Part shown: piece by piece, positions 1-16,551 of the stretch
Numbering within the stretch: the first letter of the stretch is position 1
Layout of the letters: every line of letters begins with the position of its first letter
Source of the DNA: Bacilli bacterium
GTDB taxonomy: Bacteria; Bacillota_I; Bacilli_A; RF39; UBA660
Length of the DNA: 64,000 nt
Direction: 5' to 3'
Assembly: GCA_017428495.1 (NCBI GenBank)
Contig: JAFRQS010000026.1
Location: forward strand, 8,372 to 72,371
The notes under the pieces: generated by a model
Databases searched by the model: none
The model's input: only the letters and a program-made list of their open reading frames with translations
What the model was told of the DNA's origin: nothing
Made by a program: the position numbers and the translations under genes

Positions 1-987
1 CATGATTTGCAAGTTCTGATATCATATTGATTCTTAGTGGTCCAACTTCAGTTGCAACTAATGGATTTACATATCTTGTTTTTGCATTAATATTTACACA
101 ATATCTGCCATCAACATATTCATTGCTGTGATAAACTGTATTAGCATTTTGAAATCTTCTAAAACTATCAGATAGATAAGTATCATTACAATTTAAAAAT
201 TTATTAATTATTTCTTCTTCTGATAATGTATATAAATCATCTATTGTTAAATACCCAGCATTACTCATAGATTTACACATATCCGCTAAGAATTGCATAA
301 CAGTCCTATCTTTATCACTTACCCATTCGGGCCAAAGTCTTGATATAGTATGAATATATTCTTCACACACTTCTTTATCCTTAAATGCCAGTTCATCTAT
401 ACCATCTTCATTTTTTACAATTGTTATATTATTGTACATCTTTTTTATTTGTTCTAATTCCCATACTCTAAAAAATGTTAGTCCACTAGCAAAAGTATAT
501 TCAAATCTATCGGCTGATAATCTTGGAGTATCATTATCAGCAATTGGATATATATGATAGTCATCTACTTCTTCTAATTTTATTCCATCTCTATTTAATA
601 AAGCCATTATTTCTTTTGAATTTTTAATAATATCAGTTGTTCTTTCTTCAGTAGATTCTTGTGTTTCTGAATCGCCATTCATAAAATCTATACAATGTTT
701 AAATACTGGAGTTGCTATATCATGAAATAGTCCAGCAATAGTTTGCTTCTTATCATGAGTAAAATTCCATATTATTAATGCTACTCCAACACTATGATCT
801 AAATTAGAATACCAATATCTTAGATTAAAGCATTTAGAGTAATCTGTTCCACAACTCATACTTATTTTTCCAATTCTTTCCATTTCTGGAGTATCTATAT
901 ATTCTAATAACCATTCTGGAAATGTTGGCGATAAGATACTAAAATAATCTCTTACTTCATCATTTAAATTATCTATGTACTTTTCCA
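1..987 (-). CDS. HD-domain phosphohydrolase (5' part; continues beyond window start)
   Basis: Reverse translation from ATG at 987 (MEKYIDNLNDEVRDYF...). Contains H..G.....H.........AGLFHDIATP, the HD metal-binding motif. No stop before position 1. Confidence 0.6.
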
Positions 988-1014
988 TATAACCACCTGT
1001 TTAATTATTATATC

Positions 1015-1116
1015 AAAAAAGACTAGTTTTACCTAGTCTTTTTACTACTTATTGTTGATTGCAGCTTGTGCAGCAGTTTACACCAGCAGTCAATTATTAT
1101 TTTAACTAAAATGACT
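1015..1116. repeat. att-like unit A: conserved-stem hairpin (1015-1043) + ppdK 3'-end mimic ttgattgcagcttgtgcagcag (1055-1076) + ACTAAAATGACT (1105-1116)
   Basis: 19-nt identity to ppdK 3' end at 12985-13003. Hairpin stem aaaagactag/ctagtcttt is shared with the units at 1880, 2754, 3388 and 12910. Confidence 0.8.
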
Positions 1117-1118
1117 CT

Positions 1119-1850
1119 TTAATCGAATTCTAATCTCCCTTTTCCTTTATAAAGATATTGTGGAATATTTAGTTTTAATTTTAATTCTTTAACATATCGT
1201 GGTTTAATATTTTCCTCTAATATTCTGCTAATAGCATCTGTTTGATGTTCTGGAACAGGTTCATCTAATGGCATTCCTAATACACACTTATCTTCACTTG
1301 CAGATGGAATAATGCCATGTGCTAACAATTCATTTTCTTTTGTCCAATCATCTTCCAAATCATAAACAGGTAATAATAGTTCTATGCCAAATTCATTTAG
1401 TAATTGCCTATATCCTTCAATAACTTTTGGCTGCTCAATAGAAAATAATTGACTTTTTCTTGCACCTTCGGCAATAAAATGAACATCATTTAATAAACAA
1501 TATCTTATTGCTTCATGATACATAGCACTTCTGCAATTTAGGCATCTGACTTGCGAAATAGTAGTATCACCATATCTACTGCAAAGCTCACTAAATGACA
1601 TATTTGCTATTACTCTTTCATTGTCTCTAAATAGAGGAACCGTTGTAAGTTTTCCTACATATTCAACTATATCTTTACCATATCCATTTTCAAATTTTAT
1701 TGCTCTTTCAACTTCTAAACCAGTTGATATAGAGCAGCCATTATCAAAATGAACTAATAAAACTTTATAACCTTGTGATACCAATCTTGCCATAGATAAT
1801 ATTGAATCTAATCCGCCAGAATACATTAGAAGAACTTTTTTCCTTTCCAT
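1119..1850 (-). CDS. PP-loop ATPase, QueC-like (7-cyano-7-deazaguanine synthase family); cassette cargo
   Basis: N-terminal LLMYSGGLDS PP-loop motif. About 240 aa with a C-terminal Cys pair (CLNCRS). Stop is 2 bp from ACTAAAATGACT. Confidence 0.6.
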   Translation of the reverse strand: MERKKVLLMYSGGLDSILSMARLVSQGYKVLLVHFDNGCSISTGLEVERAIKFENGYGKDIVEYVGKLTTVPLFRDNERVIANMSFSELCSRYGDTTISQVRCLNCRSAMYHEAIRYCLLNDVHFIAEGARKSQLFSIEQPKVIEGYRQLLNEFGIELLLPVYDLEDDWTKENELLAHGIIPSASEDKCVLGMPLDEPVPEHQTDAISRILEENIKPRYVKELKLKLNIPQYLYKGKGRLEFD

Positions 1851-1879
1851 AACCCCACTCCTTGAATAGATTATAACAT

Positions 1880-2116
1880 AAAAAAAGACTAAAATATAAT
1901 AATTCTAGTCTTTCTAAATATAAATATCCATAAATATAGGTTCATTTAATCTATATTTTACATTATTACCACATATTCTTTTAACATCATCAATTGTAAT
2001 AATTATTCTCACTAAGAATATGCTTTCATACTGTTTCATTTTCCTGATTTTTCGTGAAGATGAGCTTGTGCAATTTCCTACTTTGGCAGTCAATTTATAA
2101 ACTCACTAAAATGACT
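1880..2116. repeat. att-like unit B (degenerate): hairpin 1880-1914, core gatgagcttgtgcaatttcc 2058-2077, ACTAAAATGACT 2105-2116
   Basis: Same stem (aaaagacta...ctagtcttt) and agcttgtgca core as the ppdK end. The right-end ACTAAAATGACT is 9 bp from the stop of the next gene. Confidence 0.65.
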
Positions 2117-2126
2117 TATATTTTTA

Positions 2127-2468
2127 TTATTTCTTATTTTTGGGCTTTAATATTTTAGAAAATGCATTTGAACATTTTTCTTTTATTCTAGCTGTTTTTG
2201 GACCAAATCTTTTAGATACGATTGCAACTGACATTACAAATCTAGTATATATTTCTTCAATTTGTTTACATTTGTCCATATAATATTGTTCTGTATCTAT
2301 ATTATTGGCAATTGATTCTTTAACTTCTTGTTCCATTAAAGATAATGGATATTCAAAATATTGAACAATTGTAGAATATAAATGATCAGCTTTACATTTT
2401 TCTATATCTTCTTTTAACAAATTTAATCCTATATAGTATTGTTCTTTAAAAGTTATTTTCTTTTCCAT
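2127..2468 (-). CDS. hypothetical protein (cassette cargo)
   Basis: 113-aa ORF with no recognisable motif. Bracketed by att-like units B and C. Confidence 0.45.
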   Translation of the reverse strand: MEKKITFKEQYYIGLNLLKEDIEKCKADHLYSTIVQYFEYPLSLMEQEVKESIANNIDTEQYYMDKCKQIEEIYTRFVMSVAIVSKRFGPKTARIKEKCSNAFSKILKPKNKK

Positions 2469-2753
2469 ATTTCCTCCTTTTTTATTAATTTCATAGTTTT
2501 AACGCTCTGGAATTATTTGGTTATTTATCGAGCTAACCAATATCACCAAATTGCATTCATAATTTGCTATATATTTCTCATCTGATGACATGACAAAAAC
2601 CTCTATTGCAGTCACATATTATACATCAACTTTTGAAATATATCAAATACTAAATAGAACAACTCTAAATAAGCCAATTATAATCTAATTCCTGTTGGTT
2701 TTCTAAAATACATATATTATCATCCTTTCTTTTTTATATATTTTTTTCCAACA

Positions 2754-2877
2754 AAAAAAGACTATTTCTAGCCTTTCTTGTATTTTATATTTTCATGCTT
2801 TTGCGTTCTAATTATTTCTCGCTTTAATTGCAGCTTGTCACCATGTGAGGTTCGGGCCGATTTAGACTAAAATAACT
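2754..2877. repeat. att-like unit C: hairpin 2754-2778 + ttaattgcagcttgt 2824-2838 + ACTAAAATaACT 2866-2877
   Basis: About 85 bp collinear with 12910-12996 (ccaacaaaaaaagactatttctag...ttaattgcagcttgt), then diverges after cttgt. Confidence 0.8.
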
Positions 2878-2902
2878 TTTTGTCATATGTACAACAATTA
2901 AT

Positions 2903-3361
2903 TTAAATCTTTTTTCTCGCATTATCAATTTGTAATCTGCATTCATTTTCTAATATTCCAATTTCAATATTTAGTTCTGTTTTTGATTTATCTTTAATAT
3001 CAAATATAGTCACATTAGGGTTCATAGTTTCTTCACTTGGAGCACCATATATATAATTTTGTATTTTTGCTTTGATGCATGCAGACATACACATACTACA
3101 ACTCCATGCATTTGACATTATACAATAATCAGATAAATCCATTGTATGAAGTTTCTTGCATGCTTTTGAGATTAAATTAATTTCTGCATGTAAAATAGGA
3201 TTCATCATTGATTTAACAGTATTGTGTGCCTTTTCTATTATATTTCCATTTTTATCAATTAGTATTGCACCAAATGGTGAATTTCCTTCTTTGATTGCTT
3301 CATCTACTTCTTGCATCACTAATCTCATTAATTCTTCTTTTTTCTCTATAGTTAGATTCAT
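2903..3361 (-). CDS. CDA-fold (cytidine/guanine deaminase-like) zinc deaminase; cassette cargo
   Basis: HAEINLI ... CSMCMSAC zinc-binding signature of the cytidine/dCMP deaminase superfamily. About 150 aa, comparable to Bacillus GuaD. Confidence 0.65.
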   Translation of the reverse strand: MNLTIEKKEELMRLVMQEVDEAIKEGNSPFGAILIDKNGNIIEKAHNTVKSMMNPILHAEINLISKACKKLHTMDLSDYCIMSNAWSCSMCMSACIKAKIQNYIYGAPSEETMNPNVTIFDIKDKSKTELNIEIGILENECRLQIDNARKKI

Positions 3362-3387
3362 TCTATCACCTATATAAATTATACCAT

Positions 3388-3527
3388 AAAAAAGACTAGA
3401 TTAGTCATCTAGTCTTAATTACACTTTTTACTTATTTGCCCCAGACTTGATTGCAGCTTGTCAAACCAGATAATTAACTTATCCAATATGGACGCTTAAA
3501 TGTATGATTTTTAAGACTAAAATGACT
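3388..3527. repeat. att-like unit D: hairpin 3388-3416 + ttgattgcagcttgt 3447-3461 + ACTAAAATGACT 3516-3527
   Basis: Same three-part architecture as units A and C. ACTAAAATGACT is 13 bp from the stop of the downstream gene. Confidence 0.8.
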
Positions 3528-3540
3528 TAATTTAATTTTT

Positions 3541-4221
3541 CTATTTAATATTTATTAGATTTTTTACTATTTCTATAAATTGATTCCATCCTATTACTAT
3601 TGTTATAATCACTGAAAGAAAAGTTAAAATACTGATAATACCACTACATAATTTGAATAATACACTATCTTTTACTTTAGATAAACTTTTAGAAGATATT
3701 AATCCCACACTAAATAATATATCAAGAGGGCTTCCTAATATTGCTTTAATACCGCTTGTTAAGTCATATATAGGATTAAATAATCTTCTTATTTCATTTT
3801 TTCTATACTCATCTATTATTCCCATCTTTCTTAAAAAACAATTATGACACCATGTTATTTGATCTCCTTCATATTCAATCAACCCTTTTGCTTTTAAAGA
3901 TAAGACTTCGTTCATGAAATTAATTACTACTTCATAATTTGGATAATGACCTCTACTATCTCTGTAAAGCATTATTCCCGAATCACCTAATATTATTTGT
4001 ATTTTATCACTATTTGACATAAGCCATTCATATTCTTTTGCATTATATTTATCTTTATTCATCAAATCTGAAATAAATTTGCTAAACTTTTCTCTATACT
4101 CATAGATAAAGTTATAATTATCAGACCACTTTCTTATATTTAAAACATTAGTAATAATACCAATTATAATTAGAAAAATTACTGTTAGAATAAAATATAT
4201 CATGGTATGCCTCCTTAACAA
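3541..4221 (-). CDS. membrane protein (N- and C-terminal TM helices), unknown function
   Basis: Hydrophobic segments at residues about 7-28 and about 195-220. Lies immediately downstream of the serine recombinase, co-directional. Confidence 0.45.
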   Translation of the reverse strand: MLRRHTMIYFILTVIFLIIIGIITNVLNIRKWSDNYNFIYEYREKFSKFISDLMNKDKYNAKEYEWLMSNSDKIQIILGDSGIMLYRDSRGHYPNYEVVINFMNEVLSLKAKGLIEYEGDQITWCHNCFLRKMGIIDEYRKNEIRRLFNPIYDLTSGIKAILGSPLDILFSVGLISSKSLSKVKDSVLFKLCSGIISILTFLSVIITIVIGWNQFIEIVKNLINIK

Positions 4222-4250
4222 TATATTATACCATTTTATTCTAAAATAGC

Positions 4251-5876
4251 TTAATCTAATTTGTGTTCTACGATAAAATAATCTTGTTTTTTTCCTTTCA
4301 CTTCTAAATTAATTGGTTCCTTTAAAAATACTAATTTCCATTCGAACCAATCTTTATGTACTGTTATTTTTTCTACTACCTCCTCTATTAATAAATCATT
4401 AATTCCATTGTAATTAAAATCTAATAATCTTCTAACACTTTGTTTAGCTTTTTCAATTTTAACTTCAGGTGGATCTAATCTTTTTAATTCTTTTTCTAAA
4501 TCTTCTATTTCTAATTTATATAATTCTATTTTATCAGATAGTTTCTTTTGAAAAGATTCATAATCATTTGAATTAACTTTCTTATCTAAATATAAATTCA
4601 ATAATCTATCTAATTTAGTAGATTCTTCTTTTATTAATTTATTATATCTTTTTATTTCACTATTTAATTCATCAGCTTCATGTGTATCTATTTTTATACC
4701 ATTAAGTAGTATTAGTTCTAATTCTATTCTGTTGTGATCATCTTCAACAAGATTTCTAAATATAAACTCAGCCATTTTTTCAAGTTTCCATTCCTGTACT
4801 TCTTTAACTTCACAATATTTATAACCATATTCATACTTCCCACCCTTGGGATGAGTTTTTCTATTATAGCATGCATAGGCATATGTTTTACCTTTGTTAG
4901 TTGTGTGATCTTTTCTTCTATTAAATGTTGAACCACATTCACAAATCATTTTCTTGCTCCAAACATATTTAGGTACTCCAATTGCTGTCCTATCACCTGA
5001 TGGTGATGGTTTAGAGTGTCTATCTAATATAGCTTGTACTTTATCAAAATCTTCTTTTGAAATAATAGGTTCATGTGTACCTTCAACAACTATTTGTTCT
5101 ATCTCTCCTCTATTCTTTTTAGCTTTTTGCTCAAGATAATCTGGAATATATTGTTTGTTATAAACTATTGTTCCAGCATAGAATTGATTTCTTAATACAC
5201 GAGTTATATAAGCCGCATTCCATCTATTTAGTCCAGTTGATGTCTTATAACCCTTCCTTTCTAAGTCTTTTGCTATAGTAGTAGTTCCTACACCATTTAG
5301 ATATTTTTTAAATATATATCGAACTATATCTGCTTGGTCTTGATTAACTATCATAGTATTCTTATTAATTTTGTCATATCCAAGAATATTTCCTGAACCC
5401 ATGAAAATTCCATTCATGAATGCTATTCTTAAACCTGCTTTTACTCTTTGAGAAGTTTTCTTACTCTCATTTTGAGCTAGTGTTGCCATTATAGTGAGCT
5501 TTAATTCTCCATCATCATCCTTAAATGTCCATATATTATCTTCAGTAAAATATACTTCAACACCAATCTTTTTTAGTTTTCTTGTTTCTTGTAATGTATC
5601 AACTGTATTTCTAGCAAATCTTGATACTTCACGAGTAATAATTAAATCAAATTTACCTTCATGGGCATCTTTCATCATTCTTATAAAATTCTTTCTTTTC
5701 TTAATAGAAGTTCCTGTAATACCTTCATCTATATATCTATCATATAGAATCCAATTAGGATGTTTATCTAAAATATCATCATAGTACTGAACTTGATTAT
5801 CTAATGCTGACAATTGAGCTTCATGTTCAGTAGATACACGAGCATATATAGCAACCTTCCTATTCATTTTCATCAC
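4251..5876 (-). CDS. large serine recombinase (resolvase/invertase N-domain + recombinase domain + zinc ribbon + coiled coil)
   Basis: VAIYARVSTEHEAQLSALDNQ with the catalytic Ser region, RFARN and a Cys cluster (CECGS...CYNRK...YCE). 541 aa, typical of phage/ICE-type serine integrases. Confidence 0.85.
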   Translation of the reverse strand: MMKMNRKVAIYARVSTEHEAQLSALDNQVQYYDDILDKHPNWILYDRYIDEGITGTSIKKRKNFIRMMKDAHEGKFDLIITREVSRFARNTVDTLQETRKLKKIGVEVYFTEDNIWTFKDDDGELKLTIMATLAQNESKKTSQRVKAGLRIAFMNGIFMGSGNILGYDKINKNTMIVNQDQADIVRYIFKKYLNGVGTTTIAKDLERKGYKTSTGLNRWNAAYITRVLRNQFYAGTIVYNKQYIPDYLEQKAKKNRGEIEQIVVEGTHEPIISKEDFDKVQAILDRHSKPSPSGDRTAIGVPKYVWSKKMICECGSTFNRRKDHTTNKGKTYAYACYNRKTHPKGGKYEYGYKYCEVKEVQEWKLEKMAEFIFRNLVEDDHNRIELELILLNGIKIDTHEADELNSEIKRYNKLIKEESTKLDRLLNLYLDKKVNSNDYESFQKKLSDKIELYKLEIEDLEKELKRLDPPEVKIEKAKQSVRRLLDFNYNGINDLLIEEVVEKITVHKDWFEWKLVFLKEPINLEVKGKKQDYFIVEHKLD

Positions 5877-5980
5877 CTCTACTAAAAATTAACATTTTTA
5901 TAAGAATTTGTTTACTGTGCGATTTTTACATAAGAAAAAGAAGTATTTCTACTTCTTTCATCACACATTTGACAATTATT

Positions 5981-6292
5981 CTATTCTTCAGCAGCTATAT
6001 CCTTATACTTATCGATTACCTCTTGCATCTCACTGTTGATTTCTTGCACCAATACAGGCTTATTTTGAACAAACGTTTTTAATTGCCCATATATATTACT
6101 ATAAATAAGTTTTTCAACGTCACTTGCAATTTCAACGCCTTCAATATATTCATCTAATACTATCTCTTCCTCATCATATATTTTTTGTAAAATTTCATAT
6201 ATATCTTCTTTAGCAATATCAGATATAGGTTTAAAATCCACTCCATCTTTGCTAAAATAGCACTTTTTATTTTCAATTTTTAAAAGTTTCAT
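5981..6292 (-). CDS. small acidic protein, partner of the PHP-ATPase (translationally coupled)
   Basis: Start MKLLKIEN at 6292 with RBS AAAGGAGAAATATAT upstream. Overlaps the upstream gene's stop (6273) by 20 bp. Confidence 0.5.
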   Translation of the reverse strand: MKLLKIENKKCYFSKDGVDFKPISDIAKEDIYEILQKIYDEEEIVLDEYIEGVEIASDVEKLIYSNIYGQLKTFVQNKPVLVQEINSEMQEVIDKYKDIAAEE

Positions 6293-8306
6293 ATATATTT
6301 CTCCTTTCATCATATGCTTCACTACCTGCTTCCATAACTTCCATTATAGTGTCATAACTCATTATTGAATCATTATTAACTGTTGATAATGTTTTACTAC
6401 CAAATTCTCCAGTATAAACCTTAAACACATTATCTTCGTTAGCTGTATAAATCAATTTATTAGGTTTCATTAACATTCCCAATGAATTATTATGTGTAGA
6501 TATAAATACAGTAGTTTTATTAGATAATTCTTTTATTATCTCTATTATATAATCCTTTATAAATGGATTATCAAATGATGCTTCTGGTTCATCTAATAAT
6601 AATATATCATAACTTTCAGAGCCTTTAATCTCCCGTAACAAATTGTATTCAGCTCTTTCTCCTCCAGATAATTCATTACCATTCTCATTTATTACCTTAA
6701 CTTTAAATGATAATATTGCTTTGTAAACCGTGCTTCTGTCGATTCCAGCATTTACTAATTCTTTAATAAATTTAAATGGATTGGTATTATAGTTAGAATT
6801 AAAATATGAACTAATTCCTGTTCTTGTCGAAAGTTCGTGTTTTACTTCATCTGCATTATTAAATTTATCTTTCTCAACAATAAGTTTAAAACGATACACA
6901 TCTAATTCACAAATATTTTTCTTTGTTTTTAGTCTTGATACCAATTCATTATATTTATTAACTAAAATTAATTCTTTACTAGCTTTGTAAAGATTAACCT
7001 CACTTATATTTATCATTGAGGATTTTGTTGTTAATTTATCCTTAATTATAGTTACTATATTATCAGTGCTTTGCTTTAACTTATATTCTAAATACTCTTT
7101 TCTTCTCCTAGCAATTAAATCATTTATTAAACTTACAATTTGCTTTTTATCTAAATATTTTTCAATCAAATCTTTGTTATGATCACTATCAAGAATTACA
7201 GTTAACGCATTTACTATTTTTTTAGTATCATAATTATCTAAAAAATCAAACTTAATTTCATTGAATAGTTTAGTTTTTGAATATGAATCTTGTAAAGATT
7301 GATTTGTAGCAAACTCTTTTAGACTTGATAAATAATTATCTATTTTATTTAATTCTTCATTATTAATATCTAAAATTGTATCAGTTAGTTTTCTAAGTGG
7401 TTCTAAATAATTAGAAATGATTCTTTGTTGTTCATCTTTAACAAGTTCCTTAAACTTGCTTTCTTCACTTTTACCAGTCAAAGAGAATTGAGGAATATAT
7501 TTGATATTCTCACTTTTATTATCCTTTGAACTATAAATGTGTTCCAAATTATAAGTTTTTCCAGATGATCTCTTTCCTATAATTACATTTAATTTTGTTG
7601 AAGCAGTTGTACCATCTGGTAAATATGAAAATTCATCTGCTTTTTTATTTTCAGAGATAAAAACCTTATTTTTATCTGATAAAGCTTGTTTTAATACGCC
7701 AAACTCTGTTGAATTTATGTCTACGAAAGTGCTTTTTGATGGAAAGCTATATATTCCTTCTTCATTTTTATATGAATCCTCCATTCGAATATCGCTAAAG
7801 AAAACAGGTGAATAAAAAGTATCCTCTTTTTTTGTACTTTCAAATTTTTTTGCACTTTTTACTTCACCAACATTTATAATATTACCAAATTTTTCAATTG
7901 TGGTACTTTTCATTGATGGCTCTTTCTTTATGTGGGGGATTAAAATATAATCTCTGTAGTTTGGAAATATTCTAATAAATTCTTCATAACTAATTGAATC
8001 ATTAGCATTGTGTATGGAATTATTTAATAAAACGCATGAATTATTCAATTCTTCAACTCTATCTATTGAGGCAATAGCTAACATATGAGATGATTCAATA
8101 TCAATTTCTACCCCTGGTAATACAACACAGTTTAATTTGTTAACGATTGTTTCAAATTGATCTTTATCAAAATGATTATGATTAGTTATTGATATTATAT
8201 CTAATTTATTGATGTCAACATACTTTTCTAATGCATCGATTGAAAAATCAAATGATCTTTCAAAATTACTTGGTGATGTGTGTATATGTAAATCTATTTT
8301 TTTCAA
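6273..8306 (-). CDS. PHP-domain phosphoesterase fused to SMC/ABC-type ATPase (Walker A, coiled coil, LSGG signature, Walker B, H-loop)
   Basis: N-terminal IDLHIHTSPS...ITNHNHFD (PHP). GKRSSGKT (Walker A). About 300 aa helical region. LSGGERAEYNLL signature. ILLLDEPEASFD (Walker B). ISTHN (H-loop). Likely TTG start at 8306 preceded by an in-frame stop and a GGAG RBS. Confidence 0.7.
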   Translation of the reverse strand: MKKIDLHIHTSPSNFERSFDFSIDALEKYVDINKLDIISITNHNHFDKDQFETIVNKLNCVVLPGVEIDIESSHMLAIASIDRVEELNNSCVLLNNSIHNANDSISYEEFIRIFPNYRDYILIPHIKKEPSMKSTTIEKFGNIINVGEVKSAKKFESTKKEDTFYSPVFFSDIRMEDSYKNEEGIYSFPSKSTFVDINSTEFGVLKQALSDKNKVFISENKKADEFSYLPDGTTASTKLNVIIGKRSSGKTYNLEHIYSSKDNKSENIKYIPQFSLTGKSEESKFKELVKDEQQRIISNYLEPLRKLTDTILDINNEELNKIDNYLSSLKEFATNQSLQDSYSKTKLFNEIKFDFLDNYDTKKIVNALTVILDSDHNKDLIEKYLDKKQIVSLINDLIARRRKEYLEYKLKQSTDNIVTIIKDKLTTKSSMINISEVNLYKASKELILVNKYNELVSRLKTKKNICELDVYRFKLIVEKDKFNNADEVKHELSTRTGISSYFNSNYNTNPFKFIKELVNAGIDRSTVYKAILSFKVKVINENGNELSGGERAEYNLLREIKGSESYDILLLDEPEASFDNPFIKDYIIEIIKELSNKTTVFISTHNNSLGMLMKPNKLIYTANEDNVFKVYTGEFGSKTLSTVNNDSIMSYDTIMEVMEAGSEAYDERRNIYETFKN

Positions 8307-8361
8307 CTATCTCATCTCCACTTCAACAATTATTATAACATAAAACAGGAAGCTTAACTTC

Positions 8362-8565
8362 CTATTTTATTCCCCTTGGATTCCAATCCATACCTATATT
8401 TTCAAGTAATTCTATTTTTTCTTTTGATAATTTATTCTTTTTATAAGTACCTCTTTGAGTTCCTATCCATCTACCTAATTGTATTTTATCTATAGTTGTA
8501 TATCGAAACGGAATTAATAAATTTCCTTTTTCTTTATAATATTGTTCAGCAAGTTTATAAATATA
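8362..8565 (-). pseudogene. remnant of a helicase-associated (HA) domain gene
   Basis: 57-codon frame with no start: ...KLAEQYYKEKGNLLIPFRYTTIDKIQLGRWIGTQRGTYKKNKLSKEKIELLENIGMDWNPRGIK*. Matches the G.W...QR..YK.GKLS.E....L...G..W HA-domain pattern. Stop codon lies just upstream in frame. Confidence 0.5.
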
Positions 8566-8625
8566 TTATTTCAATGGTTACTCTCCATAAAATTTCTTCT
8601 CACTTGTTGTTATTATATCATGAAA

Positions 8626-8652
8626 AAAGCAGATTTTTTCATCTGCTTTAGA
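8626..8652. terminator. hairpin aaaaaagcagattttttcatctgcttt (second copy at 10562-10589)
   Basis: Perfect inverted repeat (gcagat/atctgc) flanked by A/T runs. A near-identical copy lies 1.9 kb away. Confidence 0.55.
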
Positions 8653-8677
8653 ATGCACAATATCTTAATCTTCCGAT

Positions 8678-9607
8678 CTAATCTATTTTTAATTTAAATG
8701 AATACCAAGCAGTTCCACGATCACATATTGTATCAATTAACACTACATATTCCCCTTTTAAATTAGGAACTGTAAAATTATTTTTTTCATAAGTAATAGG
8801 AATATCTACTTTTTCATATTTTGAATCATAAAAGGTAATTCTAGTTATAGTTAAATCACTAGAGGAATCTAGAGCAATAATATCCTCTTTATTACTTGGC
8901 AAATATTCATCATAATTAATATCTTCTAAAGGAATTGACAAGCCACATGAACTTGCTTTATCTTCTCCTTTAGTATCAGTAATACAATATGAGCCAATTT
9001 GTGTAAGATTTCTATCTTTACCATTAATTACCCACAAATTTCTTGGTGTTGGATTAAATACTTCAACATCCCAAGTAAATAGCCAAAAGCCAAATTTAAT
9101 ATTAATACTATTACTTAATGGCTCATTAGGTGAAATACTTACTTCTTTTTTCATTTTATAACCAAATCCCAAATAAGTATAATTATTTCCATTTTCACGA
9201 ATTGGTATCATAAACAATGGATTTTCATTATGCCTTACACGATTATAATCAGTCCAAAATGTATAAATAAAGAACAATAGCAGGAAAGCAACTACAGATA
9301 TAATTATAATTCTTTTAATTTTTTTAATCCTATTTGTTGAATATTTTATTGTATTATTTAATACTTCATCAGTTTTTTCTTTTAATTCACTTTCTTTTAT
9401 TCTTTCACCACTCAATAATTCATTTAAAGATATATCAAGTATTTCACATAGCGGTTTATAAAAAACTATATCTGGCATTCTTCTACCATTTTCCCAGTTA
9501 CCAATAGCTCGATCTGTTACATTTAATTTATCTGCAAGTTCTTGTTGTGTCATCTTTTTTTCTTTACGAATTTTAGCAATAAATTTTCCAATTTTTTCTT
9601 GATTCAT
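8678..9607 (-). CDS. membrane-tethered XRE-family HTH regulator (HTH - TM - extracytoplasmic domain)
   Basis: N-terminal MTQQELADKLNVTDRAIGNWENGRRMPD (Cro/C1 HTH). TM at about 100-120. Confidence 0.7.
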   Translation of the reverse strand: MNQEKIGKFIAKIRKEKKMTQQELADKLNVTDRAIGNWENGRRMPDIVFYKPLCEILDISLNELLSGERIKESELKEKTDEVLNNTIKYSTNRIKKIKRIIIISVVAFLLLFFIYTFWTDYNRVRHNENPLFMIPIRENGNNYTYLGFGYKMKKEVSISPNEPLSNSINIKFGFWLFTWDVEVFNPTPRNLWVINGKDRNLTQIGSYCITDTKGEDKASSCGLSIPLEDINYDEYLPSNKEDIIALDSSSDLTITRITFYDSKYEKVDIPITYEKNNFTVPNLKGEYVVLIDTICDRGTAWYSFKLKID

Positions 9608-9746
9608 AGTTTTTGCTCCTTTCGTATTTAATTATAGATTGCATTTCTAAAAAAGTATCCAAACAATCCGTAGGGTTTCATATATCTATATTTTATCACA
9701 AAAAAAGAGAATTCTTTAATTCTCCTAATAACCATTATTTGAATAG

Positions 9747-10469
9747 TTATTTTTCATATAACAATACTGATTTATTTATATATTCATCTAGTTGCTTTTT
9801 TGATATGTTTTTAATATTATTTATATTTGAATCAATATAATATATTTTTATTTTCTTAGTCTCTTTGTCGTTGATAGTTATGGGATAGTATCTATAACTA
9901 TTTCCGTTATAAATAGATTTCTTAACTATTTCATTATAAGAACATTTAGAATTCAAAAATATAATCTCATAATCATTATCATCCATTATAGAGTATTGAT
10001 TAATGTTGCCACTATAGACGGTACATAAATCTTTTGTGGTAAAAAATAATTGATTATCTCTTTCTTCAACATACATCCTATTTTCATCATAGTTTAAAAT
10101 TACTTTATGATTTCCAACAAGTATTAATGTTAAAACAACAATAACTATTATTGATACTAAAACAATAATTGTTCTTCTTATTCGTGTAATTTTAGTATTT
10201 ACATTTGATATAACGGAAAAAACATTTTCTTCTAACTTTTCTTGGTATGAATTTTTTTCTACCTTTTCACCACTTAACAAATCATTTATTGTAATATTTA
10301 ATTCATTACACAACGGTTTAAAAAAAGATACATCAGGAAAATTCTTACCATTTTCCCAATTTGATATAGCTCTATCTGTTACACCTAATTTTTCAGCTAA
10401 TTCACTTTGAGTAATTTTATTATCTTTACGACATTTAGCTATAAACTTTCCTATTTTAATTTGATCCAT
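9747..10469 (-). CDS. membrane-tethered XRE-family HTH regulator, paralog of 8678..9607
   Basis: ITQSELAEKLGVTDRAISNWENGKNFPD HTH followed by a TM segment. N-terminal region nearly identical to its neighbour. Confidence 0.7.
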   Translation of the reverse strand: MDQIKIGKFIAKCRKDNKITQSELAEKLGVTDRAISNWENGKNFPDVSFFKPLCNELNITINDLLSGEKVEKNSYQEKLEENVFSVISNVNTKITRIRRTIIVLVSIIVIVVLTLILVGNHKVILNYDENRMYVEERDNQLFFTTKDLCTVYSGNINQYSIMDDNDYEIIFLNSKCSYNEIVKKSIYNGNSYRYYPITINDKETKKIKIYYIDSNINNIKNISKKQLDEYINKSVLLYEK

Positions 10470-10613
10470 TTTATTTCTCCTTTCTAGATTTAGAATACTA
10501 TGGCTTATAAAAAAATAACACGAAGTGTTGCTTGAGTTTTTAATATTATTATTTTATCACAAAAAAAGCAGATTTTTTTCATCTGCTTGATTATTAATTT
10601 TATAAGAATTCTA

Positions 10614-10934
10614 CTATGAAACCCATGACCACAGTCTTATTCCATAGAATAAATAAAATTCTTTCCCCATAACCTTAACCATTTTATTATCGTCTGAAGA
10701 ATCTTCTGACATATAATACTTTACTTTTATTTTATAGCCAAGGCTAAAATATTCAAAATCTATTTCTTCACCAGGTTCTAAACATGATATACAATATTTT
10801 GTCCTATCCAAAACTATTAATGGTTTACTACTATCATTAATTTTTAATCTTATACTTTCTTCTGTAATAAATAAAGCAAATATTCCTATAATTACTATTA
10901 ATATTATTCTTATTATTTTAAATACTTTCTTCAT
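10614..10934 (-). CDS. small membrane-anchored protein
   Basis: N-terminal hydrophobic anchor, 106 aa. Confidence 0.35.
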   Translation of the reverse strand: MKKVFKIIRIILIVIIGIFALFITEESIRLKINDSSKPLIVLDRTKYCISCLEPGEEIDFEYFSLGYKIKVKYYMSEDSSDDNKMVKVMGKEFYLFYGIRLWSWVS

Positions 10935-10945
10935 CTAAACACCTT

Positions 10946-12121
10946 TTATTTCTTTATTAATACATCAGGATAGTCATCAGCAATTTTATCAGCTGATATT
11001 AAGTTGGTTTCTAATGCAGACTTAAGAGTCATAACCTTATTATCAATCATAAACTTAATCATTACTTTATCACTCTTAATGCAACTTAAATAGTATTTAT
11101 GTCCATTATTTTCATAGATTTGTTCTAATGCTGTAGCACAAGTTTCGTCTGGATCAGAATAGTCTAAAATGCTATAGAAAATATAATCTGTTTCATTCTC
11201 AATTATTTTTCTCAAATCTGTTCCATTTGATATTGAATAATAACAACTATTTATACTTTCTGGTAGAATTCTCTTTCCATCACCCCATACTTGTATCGTT
11301 TCAATTAGTTTTTTATCATCATACATTTTAAACTCAAATCCATGTCCATCACTTAAACAATATTCACCATATCTGTTTGCACTTGATATTGCATTTAATA
11401 TTTCCTTTATTTTATTCGAATCTTTTATTACACCTAATTCTTTATCACCAGCATTAATTATTATTTTATTAGTTTTATCTATTTTTTTAATAATATTGGA
11501 TGGTATAGATTTACTTTGTTTTTCACTATTATTAGTTACACATTTATTAGTTAAGTCTTCCATATCAATATCGTTATTTTCAGTATGAACATAAATAATA
11601 GGAATTACTGGGCTTGAGAATGTTTGGTATGTAGTAAACCTTTTACTAAAGTATTCATCAAAAACATTCATTACTTCTGATTCATAAGTTCCATTTTTAG
11701 GGAAAATAATAAAATACATATTGTCTTTATGTTTACTAGCATATTTACCTTTAAATATATCAATTTTATCTTTATTAACATTTTTTATTTCAGATAATTG
11801 TATTTCAATTAAATCATCTTGTTCTGTTACTAAATATCCACCTAATTCATTTTCTAAACAAGATACAAGTTTATTCATGTCTTGTTCTGCTTCAACATAG
11901 GTATTTATTTCTCCGGCAACATGAAATCCTAGTATTTTAAGTTCCCATCCGTCTTCATATCCAGTTGATGAGGTCTGACTTATTCTGTGTATTTTAGTAT
12001 ATTTATATAAAACAGCTTTATATTCTGTAGATCCTCCATCCCATAATCTGTCTTTAATTGGAATAAGCATTAAGATAAAAATTGCAATTATAACAATAAT
12101 AATTATTTTTTTCTTTTTCAT
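10946..12121 (-). CDS. membrane-anchored extracytoplasmic protein, unknown function
   Basis: N-terminal KKKK plus hydrophobic anchor. 391 aa. Confidence 0.4.
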   Translation of the reverse strand: MKKKKIIIIVIIAIFILMLIPIKDRLWDGGSTEYKAVLYKYTKIHRISQTSSTGYEDGWELKILGFHVAGEINTYVEAEQDMNKLVSCLENELGGYLVTEQDDLIEIQLSEIKNVNKDKIDIFKGKYASKHKDNMYFIIFPKNGTYESEVMNVFDEYFSKRFTTYQTFSSPVIPIIYVHTENNDIDMEDLTNKCVTNNSEKQSKSIPSNIIKKIDKTNKIIINAGDKELGVIKDSNKIKEILNAISSANRYGEYCLSDGHGFEFKMYDDKKLIETIQVWGDGKRILPESINSCYYSISNGTDLRKIIENETDYIFYSILDYSDPDETCATALEQIYENNGHKYYLSCIKSDKVMIKFMIDNKVMTLKSALETNLISADKIADDYPDVLIKK

Positions 12122-12213
12122 AGTTCCTCCTATATCTTTATTATACTACATAATTATTAAATATTATCATCAACTTAAATCATCGTAATATTACTATTTT
12201 TCGAACAAAGGAA

Positions 12214-12681
12214 TTAGCTATATAAATTATAGTTTAATTTCCATTCAATATATTCTTGATCTGATATTTCACCTTTCATTCTTCTTTCTCTCATTTCTCC
12301 CCATTCTTCTAATCCTCTTATAATATCTTCATTGTAATATGTCTTTTTCATTGCATCTTTGTCGAAAATATATTCACTATAAGGGCTTAGTTCTTCTTCC
12401 CACATATGATAATAAATAACTTCATTAGGGTCTACAAAATTATATCTTCTTATTGCATAGTTACTTACATCAAATAATTCTGCTAAATCTTCTAATCTTT
12501 CTGGTTGTGGTTCTCTAGCATTTCTTTCATATTTATCTATGCTATCTGTTGGTTTTTCACCTCCTAACTCTAAAAACTCTGCTACATTTGGCTTAGACAT
12601 ATATCTTAGCTCCCTTACAAATTTTAGTCTTGCGCCTTGACTAAGATTCTCCAATTCAGGTTTAAAAAAATAATTTTTCAT
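12214..12681 (-). CDS. XRE-like HTH domain protein
   Basis: ARLKFVRELRYMSKPNVAEFLELGG ... LEDLAELFDVSNYAI resembles an HTH_3 domain. Located at the ppdK-proximal end of the island. Confidence 0.4.
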   Translation of the reverse strand: MKNYFFKPELENLSQGARLKFVRELRYMSKPNVAEFLELGGEKPTDSIDKYERNAREPQPERLEDLAELFDVSNYAIRRYNFVDPNEVIYYHMWEEELSPYSEYIFDKDAMKKTYYNEDIIRGLEEWGEMRERRMKGEISDQEYIEWKLNYNLYS

Positions 12682-12721
12682 AAATATACCTCCTATCTTA
12701 TTTTTTTATTCCATTAAAAAA

Positions 12722-12760
12722 GCTAGTACTTAATACTAGCCAACTCCTTTTTTATTCTTT
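12722..12760. terminator. bidirectional terminator hairpin gctagtacttaatactagc
   Basis: Perfect 7-bp stem flanked by A-run and T-run. Confidence 0.5.
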
Positions 12761-12909
12761 TTAACTTTTGCTCTCCATATTTGGACTACAAGAAATGCAA
12801 CCCGAGTTTTATTGTCACTATACTATGCCATTTAGAACCACCTCTTTTCCAATTTTTAATAATTTTCACTTAAATATTTATGATTACCCCCAAACCCTTT
12901 TAATCCCAA

Positions 12910-12996
12910 CAAAAAAAGACTATTTCTAGTCTTTTCATTTTATTACTTTGGTACGTTTAAACGTCCTATTTTTGATTCGCCTTAATTGCAGCTTGT
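12910..12996. repeat. ppdK-proximal att-like unit: terminator hairpin 12910-12935 + ttaattgcagcttgt 12982-12996 (current ppdK 3' end)
   Basis: Template for units A-D. The core overlaps the last 9 codons of ppdK. Confidence 0.8.
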
Positions 12997-15596: not shown

Positions 15597-15672
15597 ATAA
15601 TCTTCCTTTCACACAACATTTATTGTAACAAAAAAAAAATAGTAGAGCAATAAATCTTTACTATTCTTTACA

Positions 15673-16551
15673 TTAGAAATCTTTTTTAAATTCGCCTCTT
15701 ATTCCTATTCCGTCACTTTTAATCATAAAAGTTTCAATATTAAATTTTTTCATATTTCTTTCTAATTTAATTAATTCATATTTAGTTAAAGCAGTATATA
15801 TGATATATGTTTTAGAATCATCATATCCACCTTTGGCATCCCAATAAGTAAAATCTCTTTTTAATTCATTTTTTATAAAATCATTTATTTGTTTTGGATT
15901 TTCCTTACAAAAAATAAATGCTGTAGAACATATATTTTGTTCATGTAATTTATCCACCATTAAACTATCTACTGCTGAGTATATTATAGAATAAATCATT
16001 ATATCTAAACCATATTTATATCCAGCAATTATATATATAAACAAATTAACTATTAAGCCTAATTTACCTACTGAAAAGTGATTGTTTTTTTTAGCTAATA
16101 TTAAACCTATTATGTCTGTCCCACCTGTACTTGCACCAGATGATAGCATTATTCCTACTCCAACTCCTGCTATTATTCCACCTACTACTACATTAGTTAA
16201 TATATCATCTACTAGTATTTTACTTGGCAAAACTGATAATAAAATTGCTTGTATTGTTACTGCAAATAATGTTCTAAAAAAGAAATGTTTACTAATTGAT
16301 TTATATGAAATTATAAATAAAGGAATATTAATTATGTAATAAATAACACCACTAAAATCAAATGTAGTTTTTATTTTAAATACGTCTATTGATGTACTTC
16401 TTATTAGTTGTGATAATCCCAAGATACCACCAGTATATAATTTATTAGGAACAACAAAATAATTTATTGCAAAACAAAATAGGAATGATCCTATTAATAC
16501 TCTTATTAAATCTTCAATATTCCAATTAAATACTTCTTTTATTTTTTTCAT
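15673..16551 (-). CDS. YitT-family (DUF161/DUF2179) membrane protein
   Basis: Multi-TM protein with GGILGLSQL and C-terminal DUF2179-like region. Confidence 0.55.
   Translation of the reverse strand: MKKIKEVFNWNIEDLIRVLIGSFLFCFAINYFVVPNKLYTGGILGLSQLIRSTSIDVFKIKTTFDFSGVIYYIINIPLFIISYKSISKHFFFRTLFAVTIQAILLSVLPSKILVDDILTNVVVGGIIAGVGVGIMLSSGASTGGTDIIGLILAKKNNHFSVGKLGLIVNLFIYIIAGYKYGLDIMIYSIIYSAVDSLMVDKLHEQNICSTAFIFCKENPKQINDFIKNELKRDFTYWDAKGGYDDSKTYIIYTALTKYELIKLERNMKKFNIETFMIKSDGIGIRGEFKKDF

What the first reader, a model, noticed from the sequence alone, without database searches (positions are those of the whole stretch)
1045..3461. Fossil alternative C-termini of ppdK preserved in each distal arm
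Read in the ppdK frame on the minus strand, the distal arms encode ...AQAAINNK* (unit A, stop at 1045-1047), ...AQAAIKARNN* (unit C) and ...AQAAIKSGANK* (unit D). The present gene ends ...AQAAIKANQK*. Unit B is degenerate (QAHLHEKSGK*). So each integrating element appears to have brought its own replacement tail for ppdK and displaced the previous tail plus terminator. This shows the element family carries a gene-end mimic to keep the target gene intact.
Basis: seen in the sequence. Interest (0 to 1): 0.6.

Follow-up and report, generated by a model that had tools for sequence, protein, structure and literature searches.

The report
Stacked mobile elements, discarded ppdK gene ends
A family of mobile DNA elements inserts again and again into the last few codons of the metabolic gene ppdK, each bringing a spare gene end so that ppdK stays intact, which leaves a stack of discarded ends and small single-gene cassettes; the principle is known from SCCmec-type islands, but this target gene and the miniature cassettes are new.

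Summary
ATTGCAGCTTGT occurs 4 times in the window against 0.02 expected. One copy is the live ppdK end; the others are units A, C and D. Each is followed by a short in-frame tail, a stop and a terminator hairpin. Unit B keeps only ACAAGCT.

A near-identical 6.3-kb element with a 74%-identical serine recombinase sits at this site in at least 4 host backgrounds. Its ppdK-side tail is always IKAHKN*, while the far-side fossil differs by host. In L109 a later insertion has turned IKAHKN* into a fossil. The crossover maps inside CAAGC.

Three corrections:
- Unit A is not the native arm. The scaffold holds 3 more units past the window edge, so the HD gene is itself a cassette.
- Each tail belongs to the element on its ppdK-distal side.
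- Units C and D keep only QAAIK…, preceded by TGA.

The recombinase is a distant CcrB/CcrC relative (154 bits; cutoff 900). The system works like SCC, ECC and Dehalococcoides ssrA islands but is not a member.

The new features are the ppdK target and the recombinase-less cassettes of 0.46–1.9 kb. A 578-bp GNAT cassette is 99.3% identical in another metagenome with different neighbours on both sides.

The parts
12966..15596 (-). ppdK (pyruvate phosphate dikinase, 876 aa), the target gene. Its last ~9 codons come from element E4.
   Evidence: Pfam PPDK_N, PEP-utilizers and PEP-utilizers_C; ends AAQAAIKANQK*.
12985..12996 (-). Live junction core ACAAGCTGCAAT. The inferred crossover lies inside CAAGC (12991-12995).
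   Evidence: Exact 12-mer; crossover mapped by host-versus-element comparison.
12912..12984 (-). E4-borne replacement tail (IKANQK*, stop 12966-12968), a spacer, and an intrinsic terminator (12912-12935).
   Evidence: Folds at -13.7 kcal/mol, z -2.9. 72% identical to the E2 tail module at 2741-2838. The same tail and terminator are a fossil in L125.
3462..12990 (-). Element E4 (~9.5 kb), the newest unit and the only one with a recombinase. Genes: HTH 12214-12681; 391 aa 10946-12121; 106 aa 10614-10934; XRE-type 9747-10469 and 8678-9607; PDC-M49A 6273-8306; PDC-M49B 5981-6322; recombinase 4251-5876; 226 aa 3541-4221.
   Evidence: ORFs; Pfam; PADLOC PDC-M49A E=4e-188 and PDC-M49B E=7e-18.
4251..5876 (-). 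Large serine recombinase (538-541 aa).
   Evidence: Pfam Resolvase and Recombinase, each E=1e-27. Best NCBIfam match CcrB at 154 bits, far below the 900 cutoff. PDB matches to SPbeta SprA/YokA and A118 integrase.
3462..3527 (-). E4 distal arm, including the AGTCATTTTAGT motif at 3516-3527.
   Evidence: The arm is conserved in L102/L103, whose recombinase is 98% identical. The motif also occurs in the arms of L003, L147 and L141.
3428..3461 (-). Unit D: core 3450-3461 plus fossil tail QAAIKSGANK*. This is the tail of cassette E3.
2839..3427 (-). Cassette E3: terminator 3392-3416, extended -10 TGGTATAAT 3378-3386, cytidine/dCMP-deaminase-fold gene 2903-3361, arm 2839-2877.
   Evidence: Terminator; promoter-like box; Pfam dCMP_cyt_deam_1 E=1e-19.
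2808..2838 (-). Unit C: core 2827-2838 plus fossil tail QAAIKARNN*. This is the tail of cassette E2.
   Evidence: The same tail and spacer form the fossil in L114/L116.
2070..2807 (-). Cassette E2: terminator 2753-2776, long leader, 113-aa gene 2127-2468, class I arm 2070-2116.
   Evidence: In L120 the same arm is followed by an intact core and a different tail.
2036..2069 (-). Unit B: core remnant ACAAGCT (2063-2069) plus divergent tail QAHLHEKSGK*. This is the tail of cassette E1.
   Evidence: The same tail sits behind a different arm in L140.
1070..2035 (-). Cassette E1: remnant of a CBS-domain gene (last 30 codons, 1914-2003), terminator 1881-1914, TGTTATAAT 1870-1878, PP-loop ATPase (ThiI/QueC-like) gene 1119-1850, class I arm 1070-1116.
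   Evidence: Pfam. The intact CBS-domain gene is present in L089. Fold; promoter-like box.
1045..1069 (-). Unit A: core 1058-1069 plus fossil tail QAAINNK*. This is the tail of the HD-gene cassette, not the native end.
1..1044 (-). Start of the HD-gene cassette: terminator 1016-1043, TGATATAAT 1007-1015, HD-domain-like gene from 988 running off the window. It ends in its own arm and core outside the window (L093 13617).

Best explanation
The units are junctions left by repeated site-specific integration of large-serine-recombinase elements into one site, 9-10 codons before the ppdK stop.

The circular element carries an attachment site with this layout: arm, then the crossover CAAGC, then a copy of the ppdK end (A-A-I-K plus 2-6 variable codons and a stop), then an intrinsic terminator.

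Strand exchange inside CAAGC joins the body of ppdK to the tail brought by the element. It pushes the old tail and terminator to the far side of the insert.

The new junction again reads ppdK-body / CAAGC / GCTGCAATYAA. It therefore still looks like the empty site and can accept the next element. This gives a mostly last-in, nearest-to-ppdK stack.

On this scaffold the stack is seven units and eight tails deep. E4 (9.5 kb) carries the recombinase and a PDC-M49 candidate defence system. It is followed by six recombinase-less units of 0.58-1.3 kb. Four of these lie in the window: deaminase, a 113-aa gene, PP-loop, and the start of the HD cassette.

Shown: the repeats, tails and terminators; that the tail in use travels with the element; that the fossil varies with the host; that one element's tail becomes a fossil after a later insertion; and where the crossover interval lies.

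Inferred: that the recombinase catalyses these events, and that the regenerated junction is a substrate.
For: - Core 12-mer: 4 copies against 0.02 expected, plus 3 more beyond the window, all on one strand.
- All 8 tails are followed by a terminator hairpin.
- The recombinase has the catalytic, recombinase and zinc-ribbon domains of large serine integrases.
- All 8 recombinase variants examined (57-100% identity: the window, L003, P0002, P0006, P0009, P0012, P0039/P0047, P0066) end in an arm plus ACAAGC plus a ppdK-like tail. ppdK lies directly upstream wherever the contig reaches it.
- The P0009 element is near-identical in at least 4 host backgrounds, with a constant proximal tail and host-specific distal tails.
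- L109 shows stacking directly.
- Crossover interval: the base before CAA follows the host at the proximal junction and the element at the distal junction. The wobble base after CAAGC follows the element variant in three hosts and in the L109 fossil.
- In L147, L141 and unit B, identity to ppdK stops after ACAAGC(T).
- PpdK tails after AAQA vary in sequence and length across 80 species, so swapping them is probably tolerated.
Against: - No excised circle or empty site of the same strain was recovered, so no recombination event is observed directly.
- Classical large serine integrases do not use attL or attR as an integration target. Serial insertion therefore requires the tail side of the junction to mimic the attB half-site. 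That is known for SCC but untested here.
- The stack is not strictly last-in-first-position. L084 has the same E3-E2-E1-HD run but a different unit after HD.
- The arms of the recombinase-less units fall into three classes. None matches the arm of any recombinase-bearing element seen so far.
- L102 has a normal right end but no core at its left end.
Confidence: 0.85

Rival explanations
1. The small units are true gene cassettes. They are self-contained modules (tail, terminator, promoter, ORF, arm) without a recombinase, which are excised and inserted in trans at any core of the stack by recombinases encoded on the larger elements. The result would be an integron-like platform run by a serine recombinase. 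On this view the 'fossil tails' are working halves of cassette attachment sites as well as relics.
For: - 23 of 30 core-to-core intervals are 458-1891 bp, mostly holding one gene.
- The layout is compact and uniform: 84-103 nt from the core through the tail, terminator, TGNTATAAT box and RBS to the ATG. The GNAT stop codon abuts its arm.
- The 578-bp GNAT cassette is 99.3% identical core to core in L129, which comes from another metagenome, and has different neighbours on both sides.
- E1 has different neighbours on both sides in L140. E2 and HD have different downstream partners in L120 and L084.
- Three arm classes are each conserved across unrelated cargo.
- 7 of 8 fossil cores are exact or differ at one base, although they no longer code for protein.
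Against: - None of the recombinase-bearing elements seen has a class I, II or III arm, so no cognate enzyme is identified.
- Signs of decay exist: a recombinase N-terminal remnant in L125 and a truncated CBS-domain gene in E1.
- The left boundary of the PP-loop module differs between L103, L089 and the window and is not at a core.
- Reassortment could also arise from homologous recombination between the shared core, tail and terminator.
Confidence: 0.35
2. The small units are inert wreckage. Each was once a full recombinase-bearing element that integrated by itself and later lost its interior by deletion (cis-mobilizable-element-like decay). Array differences between strains then come only from homologous recombination or deletion between the repeated ends.
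For: - L125 keeps a 51-aa recombinase remnant behind an E4-type tail.
- E1 keeps the last 30 codons of a CBS-domain gene that is intact in L089.
- This decay-and-accretion route is the textbook one for tandem islands (PMC5704250).
Against: - Random deletions should not repeatedly leave one intact gene with its promoter flush against the terminator and its stop codon flush against the arm.
- The GNAT cassette has identical boundaries in two unrelated contexts.
- The arm classes are shared by cassettes with unrelated cargo.
Confidence: 0.4
3. The repeats are local duplications of the ppdK 3' end, produced by slippage or unequal crossing-over, or they are an assembly artefact. No mobile element would be involved.
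For: The repeated unit is short and direct.
Against: - The tails, arms and cargo all differ between units.
- An identical element occurs in different genomes.
- The junctions are reproduced at 98-100% identity in independent assemblies from more than 10 samples.
- A recombinase gene is always present at this site in related loci.
Confidence: 0.02

Closest known systems
SCC / SCCmec composite islands (CcrAB or CcrC) at the 3' end of rlmH in staphylococci, and the enterococcal ECC elements
   Same: - A large serine recombinase integrates an element into the 3' end of a conserved housekeeping gene.
- The element regenerates the gene end.
- The regenerated junction resembles attB, so elements stack in tandem. 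Units with and without recombinase genes are separated by repeated att sequences, and the cargo is variable (bioRxiv 10.64898/2026.03.31.715619; PMC6222049).
- CcrB and CcrC are the best NCBIfam matches of the recombinase here.
   Different: - The target is ppdK, not rlmH.
- The core is CAAGC, not TATCATAA/GA.
- There is a single recombinase only distantly related to Ccr (154 bits against a cutoff of 900).
- The hosts are uncultured low-GC gut Bacilli.
- The units are far smaller (0.46-1.9 kb, one gene), and each has its own terminator and promoter.
Dehalococcoides ssrA genomic islands (DsiB, a CcrB-like serine recombinase)
   Same: - Multiple tandem islands lie downstream of one single-copy essential gene.
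- Each is bounded by a direct repeat of the gene's 3' end.
- Some units lack the integration module and were proposed to be cis-mobilizable (PMC3146451).
   Different: - The target is tmRNA and the repeat is 20 bp of RNA gene, so no protein tail has to be replaced.
- The islands are many kb long, with a six-gene integration module.
Tandem accretion of ICE/IME with CIMEs, and tycheposon arrays at tRNA genes
   Same: [quoted passage not shown]
- It pushes older, often decayed, recombinase-less units further away (PMC5704250; bioRxiv 10.1101/2020.12.28.424599).
   Different: - Those systems mostly use tyrosine recombinases with longer identical cores at tRNA or protein-gene ends.
- According to the review, site-specific serine-recombinase IMEs usually integrate within dispensable genes and disrupt them. 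Here the target gene is preserved.
Integron cassette arrays
   Same: An ordered array of mostly single-gene units sits at one fixed platform, and units reassort between genomes.
   Different: - There is no IntI tyrosine recombinase and no attI.
- The boundaries are a linear core plus gene-end mimic, so nothing marks them as attC-type sites. Hairpin (attC-type) folding of the boundaries was not tested.
- Each cassette has its own promoter and terminator, so no common Pc promoter is needed.

Membership tests
Large serine recombinase (serine integrase) integrative elements | A recombinase with an N-terminal resolvase catalytic domain, a recombinase domain, and a zinc-ribbon/coiled-coil C-terminal part, about 450-700 aa in total. 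| tested here: met
   Pfam Resolvase and Recombinase (each E=1e-27) and a weak Zn_ribbon_recom match. PDB matches to SPbeta SprA/YokA over residues 48-339 and to A118 integrase over residues 156-465.
Large serine recombinase (serine integrase) integrative elements | Very short identity between the element site and the chromosomal site, centred on the crossover. | tested here: met
   In L147, L141 and unit B/L140 the shared sequence is only ACAAGC(T). The crossover interval is confined to CAAGC.
Large serine recombinase (serine integrase) integrative elements | Demonstrated excision and integration (circular form, empty site). | not testable with these tools
   No read-level data. No circular junction was found among the fetched contigs.
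SCC / ECC cassette chromosome elements | The recombinase is a CcrA/CcrB or CcrC orthologue. | tested here: not met
   NCBIfam CcrB 153.9 bits and CcrC 120.5 bits against equivalog cutoffs of 900.
SCC / ECC cassette chromosome elements | Integration in the 3' end of rlmH (orfX). | tested here: not met
   The target is ppdK in every locus where the upstream gene is visible.
SCC / ECC cassette chromosome elements | [quoted passage not shown] | tested here: met
   Seven units and eight tails on the scaffold. Further arrays in L103, L105, L125, L130 and L133.
CIME / site-specific accretion | Recombinase-less units that retain both att sites and derive from autonomous elements by deletion. | tested here: inconclusive
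   Decay traces are present (recombinase remnant in L125; CBS-domain gene remnant in E1). However, the tidy single-gene layout and the shared arm classes argue for more than random decay.
Integrons | An IntI tyrosine recombinase with attI next to the array, and attC hairpin sites at the cassette boundaries. | tested here: not met
   Only part of this was tested. The only recombinase in the array is a serine recombinase, and the boundaries are a linear core plus gene-end mimic. AttC-type hairpin folding of the boundaries was not examined. A tyrosine integrase exists about 4 kb beyond the last unit but is not adjacent to the array.

The most novel reading that the evidence does not exclude
The locus is a cassette platform run by a serine recombinase. 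Miniature, self-expressing, recombinase-less cassettes of 0.46-1.9 kb (gene-end mimic, terminator, extended -10 promoter, one ORF, arm) would be captured, excised and shuffled in trans at a 5-bp crossover in the end of ppdK. The enzymes would be recombinases carried on larger defence-cargo elements. This would be a functional analogue of the integron built from unrelated parts, in uncultured gut Bacilli.
Probability: 0.35. Interest if true: 0.75.

Novelty: new variant of a known kind. Interest (0 to 1): 0.55.

Why it matters
The locus gives a clean natural record of how an element can target an important metabolic gene without harming it. The element carries the last codons, the stop and the terminator of its target. 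Because the junction stays usable, the result is an ordered archive of past insertions.

It adds ppdK to the short list of protein-gene ends used by Ccr-like serine recombinases. I found no paper that names ppdK as a recombinase target. No recombinase more than 41% identical occurs in the annotated phage and plasmid collections searched.

It identifies a hotspot for defence and accessory genes in poorly known gut Bacilli. The cargo seen includes PDC-M49, restriction-modification systems, ToxIN-like toxin-antitoxin pairs and deaminases.

The recombinases, with their short defined sites, are candidates for genome-engineering tools.

If the small cassettes prove mobile in trans, the locus would be a second, independent invention of an integron-like gene-capture system.

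Tried and rejected
- **Fossil search in the 80 species representatives.** I used each locus's own 18-nt or 12-nt ppdK core. Only L003 was positive, so the phenomenon is rare among GTDB representatives or hidden behind 6-nt cores.
- **HD gene as conserved neighbour.** It occurs downstream of ppdK only in L014 and L009, at 33-35% identity. It is not a conserved neighbour.
- **Viral-contig scan.** A search for core plus terminator returned 0 hits.
- **Metagenome scan.** A search for class I arm plus core returned 23 hits. Only 7 are real (low GC, short tail); the rest are chance matches in high-GC DNA.
- **Rfam.** Nothing on window 1-16000 at E <= 0.1.
- **Consensus terminator scan.** It under-called the hairpins because it needs 3 G-C pairs. 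Folding was used instead.
- **Exact look-up of the window recombinase.** It returned only its own scaffold, so no alternative contexts or circles for E4 were found.
- **Dyad symmetry.** I looked by eye around the core and between the class I arm and the terminator stem. Nothing was convincing, and I did not pursue it.
- **Unresolved loci.** The left end of L102 and the tRNA-Met junction of L099 are unexplained. They may be rearrangements or chimeric joins in the shared terminator.
Full report
**What is in the window**

The gene at 12966-15596 on the minus strand is ppdK. It carries the Pfam domains PPDK_N, PEP-utilizers and PEP-utilizers_C, and it ends ...LAAAQAAIKANQK*.

The 12-mer ATTGCAGCTTGT is ACAAGCTGCAAT on the ppdK strand and encodes Q-A-A-I. 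It occurs exactly four times in the 64 kb, at 12985, 3450, 2827 and 1058, always on the same strand. The expectation from shuffles is 0.02 copies.

Read in the ppdK frame, the units give:
- Unit A: *TAAQAAINNK*, stop at 1045-1047.
- Unit C: W*QAAIKARNN*.
- Unit D: V*QAAIKSGANK*.
- Unit B: only ACAAGCT is retained, followed by QAHLHEKSGK*.

In C and D the residue quoted before Gln is in fact a TGA stop codon.

Every tail, including the live one, is followed within 10-45 nt by a hairpin of the type GACTAG..CTAGTC plus a U-run. Folding z-scores are -2.9 to -5.9.

**What lies between the units**

Taken in ppdK orientation:
- **E4 (3462-12990).** It carries an HTH gene, two XRE-type genes, the candidate defence pair PDC-M49A/B (E=4e-188 and 7e-18), a 538-541-aa large serine recombinase and a 226-aa gene.
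- **Three very small units.** One holds a deaminase-fold gene, one a 113-aa gene, and one a ThiI/QueC-like PP-loop gene.
- **Start of a fourth unit**, holding the HD-like gene.

Each small unit has the same compact layout. The core is followed by the tail, the terminator, an extended -10 box (TGNTATAAT) placed directly against the terminator's T-run, an RBS, one ORF and then a 40-70-nt arm that runs into the next core.

**The stack continues beyond the window**

Exact-protein look-ups returned the parent scaffold, ERZ28654133 scaffold_23. In it the HD gene is followed by its own arm and core with tail QAAINSRSK.... Next comes a GNAT gene with arm, core and QAAIKNK*. Then come an HTH gene and a KilA-N gene with arm, core (one mismatch) and QAAIKAKNNK*. 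Only after that does a convergent TetR gene appear.

The array is therefore seven units and eight tails deep. Unit A is not the native arm, and the HD gene is cargo.

Independent assemblies from more than ten samples reproduce the E4-E3-E2-E1-HD junctions at 98-100% identity. The structure is not a chimera.

**Test of the interpretation**

No such conspecific genome was available. Among 80 species-representative loci only L003 has a related island. It has a recombinase 66% identical to the window's, the same site, and the fossil QAAIKSAGKNQ*.

A better test came from the recombinase family. Protein P0009 is 74% identical to the window enzyme. It sits in a 6.3-kb element with 0-3 internal differences between L114, L110, L111 and L109, and 99.6% identity to the L108-group copy. 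These copies lie behind ppdK genes with different sequences and different upstream neighbours.
- In all these hosts ppdK ends IKAHKN* followed by the same spacer and terminator.
- The far-side junction carries a different tail in each host: IKSGKQN*, IKARNN*, IKASK*, IKAKQK* or EIKSKNN*.
- The tail in use therefore moves with the element, and the fossil belongs to what was there before.
- In L109 a further 1.7-kb recombinase-less unit lies between ppdK and this element. ppdK then ends IKAGQKK*, and IKAHKN* has become a fossil. This shows directly that a newcomer displaces the previous tail and terminator.

**Where the strands are exchanged**

- The base before CAA follows the host at the proximal junction and is always A at the distal junction.
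- The wobble base after CAAGC follows the element variant. It is C in three hosts and in the L109 fossil, and T in the other variant.
- The next wobble base is always element-type at the proximal junction and host-type at the distal junction.
- The crossover therefore lies inside CAAGC.

This fits three further cases. In the elements with recombinases P0047 and P0039 the fossils are QAKLKENI* and QATIKSGSRL*, and the shared sequence is only ACAAGC. In unit B identity stops after ACAAGCT. That odd tail recurs with the same cassette behind a different arm in L140, so it is carried by the element and did not decay in place.

**Breadth of the family**

All eight recombinase variants inspected (57-100% identity) end in an arm plus ACAAGC plus a ppdK-like tail. 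ppdK lies directly upstream wherever the contig reaches it.

The cargo is mostly defence-like. It includes restriction-modification systems (FokI-like, Eco47II, MmeI-like), a NERD-domain protein, a metallophosphatase, PDC-M49 and ToxN.

PpdK tails after AAQA vary freely in sequence and length across species. This explains why swapping them is tolerated.

**The small units**

- Core-to-core intervals fall into two groups. Twenty-three of 30 are 458-1891 bp. The recombinase-bearing elements measure 6.3-9.5 kb.
- The 578-bp GNAT cassette is 99.3% identical from core to core in L129, an unrelated metagenome. There it has a different arm before it and a different tail after it, and homology ends at the cores.
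- E1 has different neighbours on both sides in L140.
- E2 and HD have different downstream partners in L120 and L084.
- The arms of the recombinase-less units fall into three classes: TTGACTGCC-N15-17-ACAAGC...CGCCTAC.TTAGAAAGCGGCAGT, and ...CCCRAAC...TGGT. Each class is shared by cassettes with unrelated cargo.

These facts suggest that the units are discrete and recombine at their cores.

Two points argue against a clean cassette system. First, there are traces of decay: a recombinase remnant in L125, and in E1 the last 30 codons of a CBS-domain gene that is intact in L089. Second, no recombinase-bearing element with one of these arm classes was found.

I therefore leave two readings open, 'mobilised in trans' (0.35) and 'inert remnants reshuffled by homologous recombination' (0.40). 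They are not fully exclusive.

**Comparison with what is known**

The recombinase's best curated matches are CcrB (154 bits) and CcrC (120 bits), far below the equivalog cutoffs of 900. It is less than 41% identical to anything in the annotated phage and plasmid collections searched.

The logic is that of SCC and SCCmec composite islands at rlmH. In SCC the element-derived half-sites resemble the chromosomal one, so the regenerated junction is again a target (bioRxiv 10.64898/2026.03.31.715619).

The same logic applies to:
- the enterococcal ECC elements (PMC6222049);
- the Dehalococcoides ssrA islands, which have a CcrB-like recombinase and tandem units bounded by a 20-bp repeat of the gene end (PMC3146451);
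- accretion with CIMEs (PMC5704250);
- tycheposon stacking (bioRxiv 10.1101/2020.12.28.424599).

The locus fails two defining tests of SCC membership, Ccr orthology and the rlmH target. It works like SCC but is not a member.

Literature searches found no report of ppdK as a recombinase target.

**Verdict**

The principle is already known. The ppdK target, the recombinase lineage, the depth of the stack and the miniature self-expressing cassettes make this a new variant of a known kind.

Noticed in passing
window 5981-8306 (-): The cargo of E4 is a full-length match to the candidate defence system PDC-M49. The 677-aa protein matches PDC-M49A (E=4e-188) and begins with a PHP-like HIHTSPS motif. 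The overlapping 113-aa protein matches PDC-M49B.
   Followed up: partly
window 1914-2003 (-); L089 1-196: E1 contains the last 30 codons (...IITIDDVKRICGNNVKYRLNEPIFMDIYI*) of a CBS-domain gene. That gene is intact in contig L089, immediately upstream of the same PP-loop gene. E1 has therefore lost sequence by deletion.
   Followed up: partly
L003 19100-19555; L154 9520-10225; L102 9418-9891; L157 11460-12166: Type III toxin-antitoxin-like cassettes recur just after fossil ppdK tails in several arrays. Each has two to four tandem ~36-nt repeats followed by a ToxN/AbiQ-like gene of 155-166 aa. Pfam ToxN_toxin matches in L157.
   Followed up: partly
L129 ~760-1900; L120 (reverse) ~170-: In two metagenome contigs an IS3-like insertion sequence (end TGAAGTGAACCCC...) is inserted inside the cassette terminator hairpin. 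This suggests an IS that targets these conserved terminators.
   Followed up: no
L102 1-1950 compared with L083 18900-19300: A recombinase-bearing element (recombinase 98% identical to the window's) has a normal arm and core on its right. On its left it abuts the 705-aa gene that, on the window scaffold, lies beyond TetR-MMPL. There is no core at that left side. Either the 'last' tail together with TetR-MMPL-705 aa belongs to a further large element, or this is a rearrangement or a chimera.
   Followed up: partly
L099 277-420: In one contig the E2 leader and gene are preceded by tRNA-Met and a terminator instead of unit C. The breakpoint lies inside the terminator. This is either a second location for the module or a mis-join at the shared terminator.
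   Followed up: partly
L083 19250-20732: About 4 kb beyond the last ppdK-type unit the scaffold carries a tyrosine integrase followed by a Fic-domain gene. These are inserted where L102 has different sequence, so this is probably a separate integrative element.
   Followed up: no
window 8678-9607 and 9747-10469 (-): E4 holds two paralogous membrane-anchored XRE-type HTH genes. Their 5' ends share 71% identity over 240 nt (repeat D1).
   Followed up: no
L007, L030, L059, L077, about 200 nt after ppdK: Homologues (33-40% identity) of the first E4 gene (155-aa HTH) lie directly after ppdK in four other species. No recombinase or distal core was detectable within 10 kb. These may be larger or decayed elements of the same family.
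   Followed up: no
L002, contig end (window 12948): In sample SAMN15829927 the contig carrying an identical ppdK stops 18 nt after the stop codon, inside the E4 tail module. This is consistent with strain heterogeneity at this point in that sample.
   Followed up: no
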